Part shown: positions 27,001 through 33,000 of the stretch, one piece after another
Layout: every line of letters begins with the position of its first letter
How positions within the stretch are numbered: position 1 is the stretch's first letter
Assembly (NCBI GenBank): GCA_963514005.1
Contig: OY740816.1
Span: 15,748,001-15,812,000 of the forward strand
Origin: Raja brachyura
Taxonomy: Eukaryota
Direction: 5' to 3'
Length of the DNA stretch: 64,000 nt
Made by a program: the position numbers

Positions 27001-30000
27001 TGCAAGCTGATATTTATCCAGTTCCTGTATTTAATACCACAAGTACCAGGCTCCACACTTCAGTTTCCAATCACAAGCTGCGCAACATTTCTTCCTATTT
27101 TCCCTCTTGAATTCACTTCCGCTTTAAGTTACACTGGTGACCTCTGGTCCTGAACAGGCTAACATAACACTACCCACTTTACACTGAACTGCCATTTTTT
27201 AAAATTCAGTTGCAAATTTTCTCTTATCAAAAGAATTTAGCTCATTGAATCGGTTGCATTCTCCGTGGAAAGTACAAAAGGAAATCCCACGGGATGTCTC
27301 ACACAGTTATATGCGCTGCTTAACTGATAAACGATGTTACCACATTTGGTGCAATGGAGTACAGAATCGATGGAATGAAGTGCACAACACATAGGACTGG
27401 ATTACACAGCTAACAAGGGGCGATGCGTTGTATTGAGGAGGAAACCATGTAGAATAATGTGGCATTGTGAGGACTGAGAAAGTAATCGATAGAAGAAGCG
27501 AATGTCATCCTGGGATTCCACTATATTATCTAAAAAATATATAATTATGTATATTATGAAATTGGTCAGTTTGCGATATATTTAATCCTGGAGCTTGCAT
27601 GCCGGAGCAAGCAGTATGACAGAGAATGCCTCTATGCCTATAATATAAAATTCAAGTTAGAAATGGGATAGATAGATATAATAATTATTCAAATTGGAAG
27701 TCATTGCTAACTGGAGTAAAGATAGCATGGACGGTTGCAAACCATGCTGAGGGAAATCAAACTGATTATTAAGTAATATAATGGACCGTCAGCCCAGAGA
27801 CATTAGGTTAGACGAACAAGTTACCAATATCTGACTATGGGAGTGTGCAGGGGGTCACCTGAAATTAACGGAATTGGGAGTCTGCCGTGTACCAGCCGTT
27901 GCGTGCAGACCTGCCACCTTGCCCCCCCCCCCCCCCAAGGGAGCACAAAAAGGTCCTAAATAGATGGGTAAACTACTACTTAAATCTACCACCATGGTGT
28001 GCTCGCTGTCAGCCTATATCAGCAACACAAACGGCAGACATTTTTGTCCCCTGCAAAATGCCCGTCAGACCCCCCACAAAGGGCCTGAAAAATGGGCTAG
28101 CATATAGACGAGCAAGGTACCACTCAAAATCATGCCAAATGGACAAGTTGAGTTCATAGAGTACAAAGTGGGTTAGGCCAGACCAATAGTCCGCTGCGAT
28201 ACAGCTACCAGATACCCCAAAAATGGACACCTGCTGTCCAACTAGGCTAGCCTAGATATTGTGGGAACCAGCAAAAACCAAGTTTAAGTAATCTATCACA
28301 CCTTGGGGAATATAAAATGACCAATTATAGAACATTTATCCGCTGTCTTGGGTCTACGAGACGCGCTAAATGGGCACCTGGGCCCATGTAAGATAGCCTA
28401 GATATTAAAGGTTCCAGCTAAAACCTGGCGGTGATGATCAATCACAGCCTAGGAAATACAAAATCATCCATGCCAGAATAATAATCCATTGCCTTGGTCC
28501 TACAAGACTCCCCAAACAGTCCCTTAATTGCCCAACAGGGCGGAGTTGAGGGACTGATAGGCACAAGGCATTCTCCAAGGTGTGATTGATCATTTAAAGC
28601 AAACATTTAGCCCGATGGCAAATATGTGGTCCAAAATTGACACGTTGGTCCCAAGCTCATATGTATAAAGCACAATGTATTTTAAACGTTTATTATTAAT
28701 ATACTGTGTATGGAATGATTCATTAACGTATAGCAGACATTTGTTAACCATACCCCAAAGGAAATTTTCCTTCGTTATGTTACATACTTAAATTATACCT
28801 TATAAATTCGAAAGATATTAACTCCAAATTGTGTACAGTAGTTGGAAGATACCCAATAAGATGTTCGCTAAACTTATTTGTGTGAAATGTTGTTAAACTA
28901 CAATAATCATTTCAGTTTTCTAACATTATTGAGAGATCAAAATCTCGAGGTCGCCATGATAAGTGTATTTGAGGTTAGAGGACACATGTACGAAAAATGA
29001 AAAGTTTCTTATGGCAAAAATAGAAAATGATTTCAGCTTTTGAAAGAAAATGTAAATGATTACTGTACCATCAGTTGTGGAAGTTGTTTTGGATTTTTTT
29101 TCAAGCAAAACCTCACCTCATTTACAAAGAAAAATTGAAGTGATATGATAACCTAAGACTAGATTTGCAGCTGTTCGTACTTTGTATTTTGGTCTTTCAA
29201 AGGGACTATATATTGCTAAAACCACACAGTCATTAGACTAAAGCTCACTGGCATTTTAAGATGCGTCCAAAAACTGCTTCATCAGGTCATTTACCCGGTT
29301 TACCCTAAATCTTGATTTACCAAATGAACAAAAATTGCTTAATGAAATTAAATTACATGACTTTCTGAAGGTGGTTTGGGCATTACGAAACAATAACTTT
29401 TCTTCCAGTTCACATATTCTGTAATTCAACATGTTTACCTGAGAATAATTCTGAAAAGAAAACTCGGTCTGCCGTTAAGCAGTTGTTAGATATGGCGATT
29501 AAAAAAAAAAACAGTTTGCGCAAAAAGCAGCCTGAAGTTACCATTAGCAAAATTGGCGAAACGTGAACAGCTGGGACATATTTTGCAATGAGAAAAAAAT
29601 TAGCAGAGACAGCTGTGCATGTTTTACATCTCATTTTTCATTGTCCGAGTCATCGTTCTATTCCGGTCCACAACTTGTGTCATCTATGTCAAGTGTATCT
29701 TTTGTGACCTCGGTGTGTCCGTCGTCTTCAGTATTGTCACTCACAGAAACATCTTCACAGATATTGTCTGGTACTGCAGGTCCGGGAAACCTATCGGGCA
29801 TGTAATGTCCATTTTCATCCTTCCATCCATACTGCAGTGGATCCATATCTTGATCTGGTTTATGGCAGGTAGATCGTTTAAACTTGGTTTAAACTTGTAC
29901 CCACAATATCGAGGCTAGCCTAGTTGGACTGCAGGGTCCAGTGTGTTCATTTTTGGGGTGTCTGGTACCTGTAGTGCTGCGGACTATTTGTCTGACCTAA

Positions 30001-33000
30001 CCCATTTTGTACTCTGAATTCAACTTGTTCATTTGGCATTATTTTTGTGTTGTACATTGCTCGTCTCTATGCTAGCCCGTTATTAGGCCCTTTGTGGTGT
30101 GTCCGGTGCGCCATTGGCAGCGGGAAAATGTGTGCCGTTGGTGTTGTTGATACAAACGCGGCAGCGAGCACACCATGGTAGTGGATTGAAGTGGTACCTC
30201 ACTCATCTATTTAGCACCCATTTTTTGGTCCATTCGGTGGGTCGCCAAGGTATGCACGCTACGGGTGGTACCCGGCAGACTCCCATTTCCGTTCATTTCA
30301 AGTGACCTCCTGCGCACTCCCATAGTTAGATATTCGTACCTAGTTCGTCTAACCTAATGTCTCTGGGCTGACGGTCTAAAACCCATGCGGTCACTGGGAG
30401 AACGTACAAACTCCCTTCTGACAAGCACACGTTGTCGGGATCGAACCCGGATCTGTGCAAGCGCTGCGAGGCAGCAGCTCTGCCACTGCGCCACCCCCCC
30501 CCTACATGATATGGACCTGGCTTCGGATTTTCCGGCTGATGTCCAACTCCAGGGTCAGGTGCACCGGGAGTTTCACGCAGCTCCAGGATCTCCATGTTCT
30601 CAACTTGATGACCTCCTGAACTTTGAAAAACATATGAGCGAAATTTATTTGGTTTTGGCTGCAGTTCCCCATGTTGCACTTTAGTATTCCGTTTAAGATC
30701 TGGGTCTGAATTCCATATAATCTAACCACTTCTGTTTCTGCTACTGCTGTCTGGATCTCACGGTTGCCAGCCATTTTAATTCCTCTTTCATTTCCCACAG
30801 AGACAGATCTCTCTTCGGCCCCCTTTCACTGCCAAGGTGCGTCCAAACGCGAACGAGAGGAATATCACATAATATTCCTGCAAACTATCGGCGGGAAATC
30901 ATGAATTCTCCAATTGCAGATAATGCCCACCACCCGGTGTCTCTTTCCATCTCCTCATATCTATCCTGGTTCTCTCACACCCAGTATGTTTTTATCACAA
31001 TGCGCCCGACCCCGATCACCCTATCCTCTGTCCCGTACCCCATGTGCACATTGCCTACCCACACACTCAACCCATTGGATTCACTGGCCCTCTTTTCTTA
31101 CGCACTCCTTTTTGTTCTTACTATCTGTCCACCACCTCTATTTGTCGGCTTCAATCTGCCGCTTCATTTCGTATCAGGTTCGGAATCTGCACCCGTGTGT
31201 TCTCCACTTGCCACCTCCCAGTCTCTAGTGCTATCTTCACCTTTCCCACCTCAGCTAACACATATCTACCAGTCAAGCCCACTTCACCTGTATCCATCTA
31301 TTGCATGCTGGCTCTTGCCCCATAATTTACCTCCCTATCTAGACTACCTACTTCCCTTCGGCTCATTGACGTTGAACTATCTGCATCCGATTCCCCGTTT
31401 CCCGTCACAGATGCTCCCCGACCAGCTCAATGTCTCCAGCAGCTCTACTTTATTGCTTTCATCATCTCAGTGTCTTGTTGCTCAACATCTGCCTCTTGCC
31501 GTTGGGCTCCAGTGGCCCTATCATAGTTCCCGAGCCTGAAGGATCAATACACCTTTCCCTTCCCGTGTAATATCTTTAGTTCTCGATTCCCCTACCTCGG
31601 GAAAACTACACCGTGATTTCATCATATCTATTTCTCTCACGGTTTTGTGCATCTTTATACACATTATACAAATCTGAAGCATTGATTTCTAAATGCTGAG
31701 TTAATACTCTGTCGTATTAACTTCCCTTCTGGAGTAAGTCACTCGAAACCCAGTCGAGCTTGCAGGTCAATACCGACAAAGTTGCTGGTGGACTTCAGGA
31801 GGAGAGGAACACCCCTGTCCCCTGTCTCCATCAATAATGTGGATGTGTAGTTTACCAAGAGGAACAACTACATTGGAGTTTATCTGGACAGTAAACTGGA
31901 CTGGTCCAGGAACGCTGAGGCCCTGTACAAGAAGGGACGGAGTCGGCTGTACTTTTTGAGAAGGCTCCGCTCCTTCAACGTCTGCAGTAAGATGCTGCCG
32001 ATGTTCTACTAATCGGTGGTAGTCAGTGCCAACCCCTTCGCTGTCGTGTGCTGGGGCAGCAGGGCGAAAGCTGCGGACGCCAACAGGATTAACAAAGTCA
32101 TCAGGAAGACCGGTTCCGTCCTGGGGGCGGAGTTGGATGCCATGGGAGCTGGTTTTGAAGAGCATCTTGGAAATACAGCTCACCCCCTCCATGACACACT
32201 AGTCAACCTGAGGAGTACATACAGCAACACACTGGTTCCACCAAGATGCTGTATAGAACGCCACAGTAGATCCTTTTTTCCTGTCGCTATCAAACTGTGC
32301 AACTCCCCCCCTTTCTGCCGTGGGGTACATTGACTCATCTGCGCCCACCCCCATCCCCCTCCCCAATCTTTACACATTCCTAATCCTTTCCACTCGTCTC
32401 ATTAATTTAATTTATCTTCTGTTTTACGACTGTTGTCAGATCAATTACCCTCCTGGGATGAATAAATGTCCATCGTATCGTATCGTCAAAATATCTGCAT
32501 AAATTTGTCGATTTCCTGTTAAAGGTGGGTGGGGGTTCAGTTGTGGTTATTAGTTGGAAGGTCTTTGGCCCTGAAATGAATTGTAAGAAGTAACGAGGGG
32601 AGAGCACTGTTTTCACCTGCATCTATTTCTAAGCCTAGACTCTTTCTTGCGCAACAAGCATGGGGATGGATCATTTCCAAATGGGCAGGGAAACATTGTA
32701 AGCATTTTTTTTGATGTTGCTTTTTGCACGGCGGAGTGACGCCAGTGAATTTGCTTCGAACTCTCTCTTGGCTGTAACATCTCTTCTGGAATGGTTCACT
32801 TAAAAGCCACCGGCCTGCAGCTTTTTTTTTGTCCACGACTGTACCTTGATATGGCATTCAGTATCTGCGGCGATTGCATTAAGTTTGCTCTCAAGCTCCA
32901 TTCTGAGCATTATCACATTCCAGTGACAGTAATCTTACACTGCAGATAAATGTCAATAGTAGCTTTTGGATCTAGTGAAATGACCTGAAATATCTACATT

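What the first reader, a model, noticed from the sequence alone, without database searches (positions are those of the whole stretch)
27782..30400. Duplication junctions fall exactly at transposon termini, with no target-site duplication
Seen: the right end (...GACGGTCTA) of copies 1 and 3 abuts aaaccc in the middle of a SINE whose uninterrupted version lies at 22815-23118. The left ends abut unrelated sequence: the end of block X in copies 1 and 2, and a LINE relic in copy 3. So no copy has matching flanks. Inference: this is the footprint of alternative (reversed-end or sister-chromatid) transposition, or of unequal crossing-over between elements at different sites. A DNA transposon would then have directly driven expansion of a vertebrate immune lectin cluster, a mechanism best known from maize Ac/Ds.
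Basis: partly seen in the sequence, partly recalled or inferred. Interest (0 to 1): 0.7.

Follow-up and report, generated by a model that had tools for sequence, protein, structure and literature searches.

The report
Transposon ends mark lectin-locus repeat junctions
In a skate-like genome, three copies of an old DNA transposon sit exactly at the joints of repeated DNA next to C-type lectin genes, but what was copied is a promoter and first-exon module rather than whole lectin genes, and the sequence alone cannot say whether the transposon's own enzyme or ordinary recombination made the joints.

Summary
The segment 27782-30377 is a decayed DNA transposon with inverted ends of about 510 bp. 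Two more copies lie at 34802-38289 and 48943-53740. Both readable right ends join the same point inside a SINE that is intact at 22815-23118. The left ends join two unrelated sequences, and no copy has a target-site duplication.

- Junctions at exact termini, an intact target at the array's left edge and the absence of reciprocal junctions fit aberrant (alternative) transposition.
- The repeat units and copy 1 are mosaics, so homologous exchange has acted here. Recombination between separate insertions is therefore not excluded.
- The superfamily, and so the normal duplication length, could not be determined.
- The repeated blocks hold no carbohydrate-recognition exons. They hold the start of intron 1, a putative exon 1 and upstream DNA of a minus-strand CD209/CLEC4-like gene. 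No expansion of lectin genes is shown in this window.

The copies differ by about 6-17%, so the events are old. This is a moderately interesting natural case of a known kind of rearrangement. Genome-wide copies, neighbouring sequence and related species are needed to settle it.

The parts
22815..23118 (-). Intact SINE-like repeat, the unbroken version of the right-junction target. Its head is at 23118. The break point lies between 22993 and 22994.
   Evidence: 4 of 4 full copies in the window read straight through the break point. ARAGORN found no tRNA in it.
22994..27781 (.). Unit U1: SINE head plus block Y1 (22994-24182), spacer 24183-24431, block X1 (24432-27226) and X-end (27227-27781).
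23132..23212 (-). Putative lectin exon 1 inside Y1: an ATG, an open 27 codons, then a CAG|gt donor. Copies lie in Y2 (~30520-30599) and Y4 (~53885-53965). The copy in Y3 is lost.
   Evidence: about 45 nt around the gene B start codon (43389-43432) match Y1-Y4 in inverted orientation at 80-87%. No protein-level match was found, so this part is putative.
27782..30377 (+). Transposon copy 1 (TE1). Left arm 27782-28295, right arm 29870-30377. It lacks an internal stretch that TE2 and TE3 have.
29637..29861 (-). Relic of the element's own reading frame (the C-terminal part, with an in-frame stop). Also present at 36331-36567 and 50607-50882.
30378..34801 (.). Unit U2: SINE head plus Y2, then X2 and X-end. 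It has no spacer and is a mosaic: its 5' part is closest to U4 and its 3' part closest to U1.
34802..38289 (+). Transposon copy 2 (TE2). The outer part of its right arm is deleted. About 56 nt of filler with (GTAA)n follows, at 38290-38345.
38346..39995 (.). Unit U3, partial: Y3 from the equivalent of 23212, then the spacer with a 416-bp repeat inserted (39358-39773). There is no X block. It runs directly into block Z.
39977..43128 (.). Block Z, upstream of lectin gene B. Its copy Z' lies at 60293-63413 (84.9% identity).
43426..47206 (+). Lectin gene B (CD209/CLEC4-like). Exon matches at 43426-43527, 43872-44000, 45409-45609, 46671-46784 and 47078-47206.
8921..22399 (-). Body of lectin gene A. 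TM exon 22256-22399, neck 19857-19943, and carbohydrate-recognition exons 11912-12091, 10629-10742 and 8921-9055.
   Evidence: The TM and neck matches are weak.
48265..48942 (.). Left flank of TE3: an interspersed-repeat relic cut off in mid-repeat at the transposon end. It lies just after the N run 48125-48264.
48943..53740 (+). Transposon copy 3 (TE3), with a later reverse-transcriptase-bearing LINE insertion at about 50876-52709 on the minus strand.
   Evidence: (RVT_1, 105 bits)
53741..58522 (.). Unit U4: SINE head plus Y4 (with insertions at 54009-54372 and 54604-55123), then X4 up to the equivalent of 27226. Unique DNA follows (W', 58523-60292).

Best explanation
**What the element is.** It is a worn-out, non-autonomous cut-and-paste DNA transposon with long inverted ends that are themselves internally repetitive. 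It lies in the 5' region of a CD209/CLEC4-like C-type lectin gene in a skate-like genome.

**Most likely history.** The element inserted once, probably at the end of block X. While the family was still active, transposase cut its ends, and those ends were joined to the wrong DNA on the sister chromatid or the homologue. This is aberrant (alternative) transposition, or end-joining of transposase-made breaks.
1. One event joined the right end to a point in a SINE 7.4 kb upstream, inside intron 1 of the lectin gene. That produced the tandem unit [SINE head, exon-1 module, X, transposon].
2. Another event joined a left end to the repeat relic at 48942.
3. Unequal crossing-over, gene conversion and deletions between the units then added, homogenised and trimmed copies.

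**What was multiplied.** A promoter and first-exon module together with the transposon, not a complete lectin gene.

**Shown:** the junction positions, the inverted repeats, the lack of duplicated flanks, the intact target and the mosaic units.
**Inferred:** the involvement of transposase, a single original insertion, and the order of events.
For: - **Termini coincide with junctions.** The outer ends of the inverted repeat fall within 1-2 nt of the homology breakpoints in all three junction classes.
- **Intact target at the array edge.** The left edge of the array is an intact SINE with no transposon. Zhang et al. 2013 (PMC3744419, section 10 and a passage of the Discussion read) use a missing element at one outer breakpoint as their argument against recombination. 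Their genome signature is two elements that share one flank while the other flank does not match, which fits TE1 and TE2.
- **No reciprocal junctions.** SINE tail|left end, and right end|a sequence other than the SINE head, occur nowhere in the 64 kb.
- **Not a retroposed SINE.** The SINE piece next to the element is the 5' head. Retroposition truncates SINE copies at the 5' end, not the 3' end (established knowledge, recalled). So this is a broken SINE, not a new SINE insertion.
- **The element is of mobile origin.** It carries a relic reading frame. An hmmsearch of 1.84 billion representative proteins gave 11 proteins at E <= 0.001. Ten of them are short eukaryotic hypothetical proteins sharing one motif.
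- **One founding copy.** All three copies share the same in-frame stop.
Against: - **The simplest model gives too few elements.** On my derivation from the hybrid-element model as outlined in PMC2775673, an exchange of the ends of a single element between sister chromatids leaves one element per duplication. The window has element-unit-element-unit, so an extra unequal crossover is needed.
- **Homologous exchange is demonstrably active here.**
  - Unit 2 switches partner along X (chi-square p = 5e-7).
  - TE1 switches partner about 340 nt inside its left arm (33:11 against 72:103 sites; 3 of 2000 permutations reach this value).
  - So recombination between separate insertions could have made the same junctions.
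- **The test flank is gone.** TE2's right flank would carry the original duplicated target under this model, and it is deleted.
- **Superfamily unknown.** The transposase type and normal duplication length are unknown: no Pfam family and no longer relatives.
- **No independent proof of mobility.** Every copy in the window has the same right-hand neighbour.
- **History not fully reconciled.** The downstream locus (TE3, U4, W', Z') needs further deletions under any order of events that I tried.
- **Singleton junction.** The TE3 left junction is a single instance close to an assembly gap.
Confidence: 0.45

Rival explanations
1. **Ectopic homologous recombination between separate insertions.** Two or three copies of the element inserted normally and in the same orientation: in the SINE, at the end of X, and in the repeat relic. 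Unequal crossing-over between them then produced hybrid elements with mismatched flanks and tandem repeats.
For: - TE1 is a mosaic. Its outer ~340 nt of left arm groups with TE2, and the rest leans towards TE3.
- Chimeric copies with exchanged flanks are the criterion used for the long-inverted-repeat element Galileo (PMC2775673, passages read).
- Unit 2 is also a mosaic, so recombination operates in this array.
- If the insertion in the SINE was still polymorphic, a crossover between homologues gives exactly the observed order, including the intact SINE at the left edge (my derivation).
Against: - The model needs three insertions within about 25 kb, all in one orientation, plus heterozygosity.
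- None of the three reciprocal junctions is in the window.
- The simple form predicts an element at both outer edges of the duplication (Zhang 2013, Discussion passage). The left edge has none.
- The TE1 tract that resembles TE2 continues about 2 kb into flank X. That looks like a later conversion tract rather than the founding crossover.
Confidence: 0.3
2. **Insertion followed by flanking deletions (contraction, not expansion).** The element inserted normally into the intron-1 SINE of a once-complete neighbouring lectin gene copy. Deletions starting at its left end then removed the SINE tail and the gene body. Units 2-4 would be stumps of lost genes, later copied by unequal crossing-over.
For: - The junction lies in intron 1, about 140 nt after the putative exon-1 donor.
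- Units 2 and 4 keep an open exon-1-like frame but no downstream exons.
- One right junction against two left junctions fits a fixed right end and a labile left end.
Against: - It needs two separate deletions that each end exactly at the left terminus.
- No trace of the deleted gene bodies or of the SINE tail lies next to any copy.
- No empty site was found for the X-end flank.
Confidence: 0.1
3. **Breakage provoked by the long inverted repeat, without transposase.** A hairpin or cruciform forms and is cut at its base, which is where the element's ends lie. Repair by end-joining or template switching on the sister chromatid then gives duplications bounded by the repeat ends.
For: - The arms are at least 510 bp long, and up to about 650 bp in TE3.
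- The breakpoints lie at the outer edges of the repeat.
- That long inverted repeats are fragile is recalled knowledge, not checked here.
Against: - The arms are separated by 1.6 kb or more and are only 76-80% alike today. As I recall, fragility falls steeply with spacer length and with divergence between the arms.
- Three junction classes would all need to fall within 1-2 nt of the ends.
Confidence: 0.08
4. **Assembly error.** Misjoined repeats create false junctions.
For: - The TE3 left junction occurs once and lies 677 bp from the N run 48125-48264.
- No reads were available to check any junction.
Against: - The right junction and the X-end junction each occur twice, and the copies have diverged (84% across the right junction; about 91% in ungapped columns at the X-end junction). 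A misjoin cannot produce that.
- The copies are 6-17% apart, which is too different to be collapsed or mixed by an assembler.
Confidence: 0.03

Closest known systems
Tandem direct duplications made by alternative (reversed-ends) transposition of maize Ac/Ds and dhAT elements (Zhang, Zuo and Peterson 2013, PMC3744419)
   Same: - An element lies exactly at the duplication junction.
- Two element copies share one flank while the other flank does not match.
- The target is intact, and no element lies at one outer breakpoint.
   Different: - In maize the 8-bp target duplication could be read and matched between the reciprocal products. Here the duplication length is unknown and the decisive flank of TE2 is deleted.
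- The maize progenitor had two elements with reversed ends. No such pair is seen here.
- The host is a cartilaginous fish.
- The events are old (6-17% divergence) and overlaid by recombination.
Ectopic recombination between Galileo copies (P superfamily, long internally repetitive inverted ends) at Drosophila buzzatii inversion breakpoints (Delprat et al. 2009, PMC2775673)
   Same: - The element has long inverted ends that are internally repetitive, with a ~146-nt subrepeat, and little coding capacity.
- Copies sit at rearrangement breakpoints with non-matching flanks.
- One copy is a mosaic by the same maximum chi-square test.
   Different: - The copies here are in direct orientation, so the outcome is duplication, not inversion.
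- Exchanged target duplications cannot be shown.
- The mosaic tract runs on into the flank.
- Relatedness to Galileo was not tested and is not claimed.
Hybrid element insertion of P elements (sister-chromatid or homologue ends), as summarised in the introduction of PMC2775673
   Same: The two ends of one insertion site act from different chromatids, giving a duplication or deletion directly beside an element that stays in place.
   Different: - It predicts one element fewer than is seen here (my derivation).
- The primary papers were not read.

Membership tests
Alternative-transposition tandem duplication (Ac/Ds type) | The duplication junction lies exactly at a transposon terminus. | tested here: met
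   the homology breakpoints fall within 1-2 nt of the ends of the inverted repeat.
Alternative-transposition tandem duplication (Ac/Ds type) | The target site is intact and no element lies at one outer breakpoint. | tested here: met
   the SINE at 22815-23118 is intact at the left edge of the array.
Alternative-transposition tandem duplication (Ac/Ds type) | One element keeps the matching target duplication of the original insertion. The other element shares only one flank with it. | tested here: inconclusive
   TE1 and TE2 share the left flank. TE2's right end and flank are deleted, so no duplication can be read.
Alternative-transposition tandem duplication (Ac/Ds type) | The target duplication of the aberrant event is split between the duplication product and the reciprocal deletion product. 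| not testable with these tools
   The reciprocal chromosome no longer exists, and no population data are available.
Ectopic recombination between dispersed element copies | The junction elements are chimeric. | tested here: inconclusive
   the breakpoint lies at about 28118-28124, with 3 of 2000 permutations reaching the observed value. But the tract continues into X, as a later conversion would.
Ectopic recombination between dispersed element copies | Parental junctions are retained, with an element at both outer edges of the duplication and exchanged target duplications. | tested here: not met
   within the 64 kb there is no SINE tail|left-end junction and no right end with any other flank. 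Sequence outside the window was not seen.
Cut-and-paste DNA transposon with terminal inverted repeats | Terminal inverted repeats | tested here: met
Cut-and-paste DNA transposon with terminal inverted repeats | A target-site duplication flanks each copy. | tested here: not met
   TE1 gives only a chance-level 3-nt match, and TE3 gives none. This absence is the finding itself.
Cut-and-paste DNA transposon with terminal inverted repeats | Copies occur at unrelated sites in the genome. | not testable with these tools
   No collection on hand holds this genome. In the window, all 3 copies have the same right neighbour.
Cut-and-paste DNA transposon with terminal inverted repeats | A recognisable transposase, or a relic of one. 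| tested here: inconclusive
   A relic frame is conserved in all 3 copies. It has relatives among eukaryotic hypothetical proteins but no Pfam family.

The most novel reading that the evidence does not exclude
A single long-inverted-repeat DNA transposon beside a skate CD209/CLEC4-like lectin gene underwent two aberrant transposition events, one at each terminus. These events copied the gene's promoter and first-exon module in tandem and to a site 18 kb downstream. This would be a natural, fixed case of alternative transposition shaping a vertebrate immune-gene locus, and it might supply alternative first exons. In the top 10-15 listed results of three full-text searches (up to 3,549 papers matched) I saw no natural vertebrate case in print; those searches are not exhaustive.
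Probability: 0.3. Interest if true: 0.6.

Novelty: new member of a known kind. Interest (0 to 1): 0.4.

Why it matters
**Why it would matter.** Tandem duplications in vertebrate immune-gene clusters are usually put down to recombination between repeats. A documented case in which the cut ends of a DNA transposon seeded the duplication would carry a mechanism known from maize and flies into vertebrates. It would also give a sequence signature to search for genome-wide: an element at the junction, an intact target at one edge, and no duplicated flanks.

**What limits it here.**
- Only a promoter and first-exon module was multiplied, so the effect on the lectin repertoire is at most regulatory.
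- The mechanism cannot be separated from recombination with this window alone.

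Tried and rejected
**Searches that gave little**
- Pfam on all 256 stop-to-stop frames of 70 codons or more (148 and 108). Six frames had any family at E <= 0.01, and only two passed the curated cut-offs: ALKBH8_N at 24615-25259 and RVT_1 at 50960-52297. No frame of the element's own sequence gave a credible match: the only hits inside a copy are RVT_1, in the LINE inserted into TE3, and a sub-cut-off Sec7 match (17 bits) at 50126-50419.
- Longer relatives of the element's reading frame: 99 candidates, none at E <= 0.001.
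- Pfam on 5 of its relatives: one sub-threshold MBD match only.
- Atlas look-alikes: all 30 nearest clusters are unnamed eukaryotic hypothetical proteins. The superfamily stayed unknown.
- ARAGORN on the SINE: 0 tRNA genes.

**Structural tests that came up empty**
- An empty site for the X-end flank, or a relative of W': none found.
- The idea that TE3 to X4 is one insertion into the repeat relic is rejected. W' does not continue the repeat that is cut off at 48942.
- The Galileo-style comparison of arm divergence within and between copies is uninformative. All left-right arm pairs are 78-87% alike, whichever copies they come from.
- BLASTP of the exon-1-like peptide against a skate lectin gave no alignment. 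The exon-1 reading rests on about 45 nt of DNA similarity and on position only.
- No lectin exon relic was found in X, Z or the element, even at permissive settings.

**Ideas rejected**
- Site-specific insertion into the SINE: no copy has the SINE tail on its left.
- A SINE retroposed next to the element: the piece is the 5' head.
- The flanks being part of the element: the TE3 flank differs from the TE1/TE2 flank on the left, the intact SINE bounds the right, and both limits coincide with the ends of the inverted repeat.

**Method note**
- A global three-way MAFFT alignment of the elements misaligned the non-homologous middle. I used BLAST segments instead.

**Not available**
- The genome collection holds only bacteria and archaea.
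- So there were no genome-wide copies, no orthologous loci and no reads.
- Supplements of PMC3744419 (Text S1/S2, the junction sequences) could not be seen.

Full report
**Source and limits.** The window has one N run (48125-48264), which I left as it is. The best protein matches of its lectin exons are CD209/CLEC4-like proteins of the skates Leucoraja erinacea and Amblyraja radiata and of rays (12 proteins at E <= 0.001 among 30 candidates). I therefore take the window for a skate-like cartilaginous fish, not human. Exons were searched one by one (tblastn). I made no joined spliced model. No collection on hand holds this genome, so genome-wide copies, orthologous loci and reads could not be examined.

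**Repeat map (81 non-self HSP pairs; refined).**

| Coordinates | Feature |
|---|---|
| 22815-23118 | Intact SINE-like repeat, minus strand |
| 22994-27781 | U1: SINE head + Y1, spacer 24183-24431, X1, X-end 27227-27781 |
| 27782-30377 | TE1 |
| 30378-34801 | U2 (no spacer) |
| 34802-38289 | TE2 (right arm truncated) |
| 38290-38345 | Filler with (GTAA)n |
| 38346-39995 | U3, partial: Y3 and spacer, no X |
| 39977-43128 | Block Z |
| 43426-47206 | Lectin gene B, plus strand |
| 48125-48264 | N run |
| 48265-48942 | Repeat relic |
| 48943-53740 | TE3, with a LINE insertion at about 50876-52709 carrying reverse transcriptase (RVT_1, 105 bits) |
| 53741-58522 | U4 |
| 58523-60292 | Unique DNA W' |
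| 60293-63413 | Z' (84.9% identical to Z) |

**The element.**
- TE1 has inverted arms at 27784-28295 and 29870-30376 (80%). The outer 129 nt are 90% complementary.
- The arms contain a subrepeat of about 146 nt.
- The five readable ends share one terminal motif.
- A reading-frame relic on the minus strand is conserved in all three copies (85% mean column identity) and carries the same in-frame stop.
- A profile of this relic found 11 proteins at E <= 0.001 among 1.84 billion representatives, 2 of them at E <= 1e-10. Ten are short eukaryotic proteins sharing a motif. One, a 568-residue repetitive protein, looks spurious to me.
- These relatives have no Pfam family, no longer relatives and only unnamed look-alike clusters.
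- So the element is a decayed, non-autonomous copy of a mobile family of unknown superfamily, and its normal target-duplication length is unknown.
- No other fragment of it lies in the window.

**The junctions.**
- *Right.* TE1 and TE3 end ...GACGGTCT and continue AAAACCC..., with the same flank for hundreds of bases (84% over 29872-30660 / 53298-54026). The intact SINE and 4 of 4 full copies of that repeat in the window read ...cagag|AAAACCC.... One A could belong to either side. TE2's outer right arm and the start of U3 are deleted.
- *Left.* TE1 and TE2 share the X-end flank. TE3 abuts an unrelated repeat that is cut off in mid-repeat, and the continuation of that repeat is not found after TE3 or at the start of W'.
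- *Flank duplication.* None. The only match is a 3-nt one under an asymmetric boundary in TE1, which is at chance level.
- *Not a new SINE insertion.* The SINE piece at the junction is the 5' head, which retroposition does not produce on its own (established knowledge, recalled).
- *Reality of the junctions.* The right junction and the X-end junction each exist in two diverged copies, so they are real and old. The TE3 left junction is a singleton 677 bp from the gap.

**What the repeated blocks contain.**
- Carbohydrate-recognition exons lie only at 11912-12091, 10629-10742 and 8921-9055 (minus strand, gene A) and at 45409-47206 (plus strand, gene B).
- Weak minus-strand matches place a TM exon at 22256-22399 (33% identity to a skate lectin at the right residues) and a neck exon at 19857-19943.
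- About 45 nt around the start codon of gene B match all four Y blocks in inverted orientation (80-87%). In Y1, Y2 and Y4 this is followed by an ATG, 27 open codons and a donor-like CAG|gt.
- There is no protein-level support for this exon 1, so it is putative.
- If it is right, the intact SINE lies in intron 1 of gene A, and the right junction is about 140 nt past the exon-1 donor.
- Units 2-4 are then promoter and first-exon stumps. No lectin gene is shown to have been added.
- Z' is not followed by an exon-1 match before the window ends.

**Relationships of the copies.**
- *Y, four units.* Of 28 informative sites, 22 group U1+U3 against U2+U4, 6 group U1+U2, and none group U1+U4. The 240-bp spacer is missing from U2 and U4 only. 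This fits U2 and U4 being the most recent pair.
- *X.* The 5' half groups X2 with X4 (111 against 40 and 36 sites). The 3' half leans towards X1 with X2 (56 against 38 and 36). The heterogeneity has p = 5e-7.
- *The element.* The outer left arm groups TE1 with TE2. The arm tree supports this at 0.95, and 7 shared-derived sites support it against 2 and 1. The remainder is star-like and leans towards TE1 with TE3.
- *Maximum chi-square test on the element.* It places the switch at about 28118-28124 (33:11 against 72:103 of 219 informative sites). Only 3 of 2000 permutations reach this value.
- *One contiguous tract.* The stretch in which U1 and U2 are most alike (91-95%) runs without a break from about 26.9 to 28.0 kb. 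One conversion or crossover tract explains both mosaics.
- *Conclusion.* Homologous exchange has acted on the array, and it hides the founding events.

**Mechanism.**
- Two facts need explaining. Three junction classes lie at exact termini, and the SINE is intact at the left edge.
- Zhang et al. 2013 (PMC3744419; passages, section 10 in full and a passage of the Discussion read) describe this signature for alternative transposition. They argue that recombination between elements should leave an element at both outer breakpoints.
- Delprat et al. 2009 (PMC2775673, passages read) show the opposite case for a long-inverted-repeat element, using chimeric copies as the criterion.
- Here the edge criterion favours aberrant transposition, and the chimerism criterion is ambiguous.
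- A crossover between homologues while the SINE insertion was polymorphic would mimic the observed edge.
- The simplest exchange of one element's ends between sister chromatids gives one element too few.
- I therefore put transposase-made breaks at 0.45 and recombination between separate insertions at 0.30. The smaller rivals are insertion followed by flanking deletions (0.10), fragility of the inverted repeat (0.08) and assembly error (0.03).

**Verdict.**
The claim that a lectin cluster was expanded is not supported in this window.
- This is a new example of a known kind of rearrangement, in an unusual host, and it is old and eroded. Interest 0.4.
- In the top 10-15 listed results of three full-text searches I saw no natural vertebrate case of alternative-transposition duplication; the searches are not exhaustive.

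Noticed in passing
window 23132-23212 (-), with copies at about 30520-30599 and 53885-53965: The Y blocks carry a putative lectin exon 1 with its 5' leader in minus orientation. Gene A would then have one or more spare promoter and first-exon modules upstream, which could serve as alternative first exons.
   Followed up: partly
window 50875-51399 and 54607-55130; also 20645-21184 (inverted) and 15574-16043: Two fragments of one LINE family are 96.8% identical. One lies inside TE3, next to an open 446-codon reverse-transcriptase frame at 50960-52297 (minus strand), and the other inside Y4. These are far younger than the duplications, so the LINE family was active recently.
   Followed up: partly
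window 4024-5010 and 6489-7489 (inverted pair, 76%); frame 6981-7295: A pair of inverted repeat copies shows a weak GIY-YIG endonuclease match (21.1 bits, below the cut-off). This may be a Penelope-like retroelement. The left flank of TE3 (48267-48536) is 58-60% similar to it.
   Followed up: no
window 24183-24431 and 39330-39995: A 240-bp spacer is present in units 1 and 3 and absent from units 2 and 4. In unit 3 it is split by a 416-bp interspersed repeat (39358-39773). Copies of that repeat also lie inside X (25234-25574, 32251-32646, 56492-56886) and at 10372-10511.
   Followed up: partly
window 27925-27941 and 37933-37960: Long C and G homopolymer runs lie inside the arms of the element, at corresponding inverted positions. 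They could hamper sequencing and assembly of the arms.
   Followed up: no
window 1513-1647 (-): A TM-exon-like lectin match lies on the minus strand at the left edge of the window. This suggests a third lectin gene whose body lies outside the window.
   Followed up: no
window 54009-54372: A 364-bp insertion is found only in Y4. Its nature was not examined.
   Followed up: no
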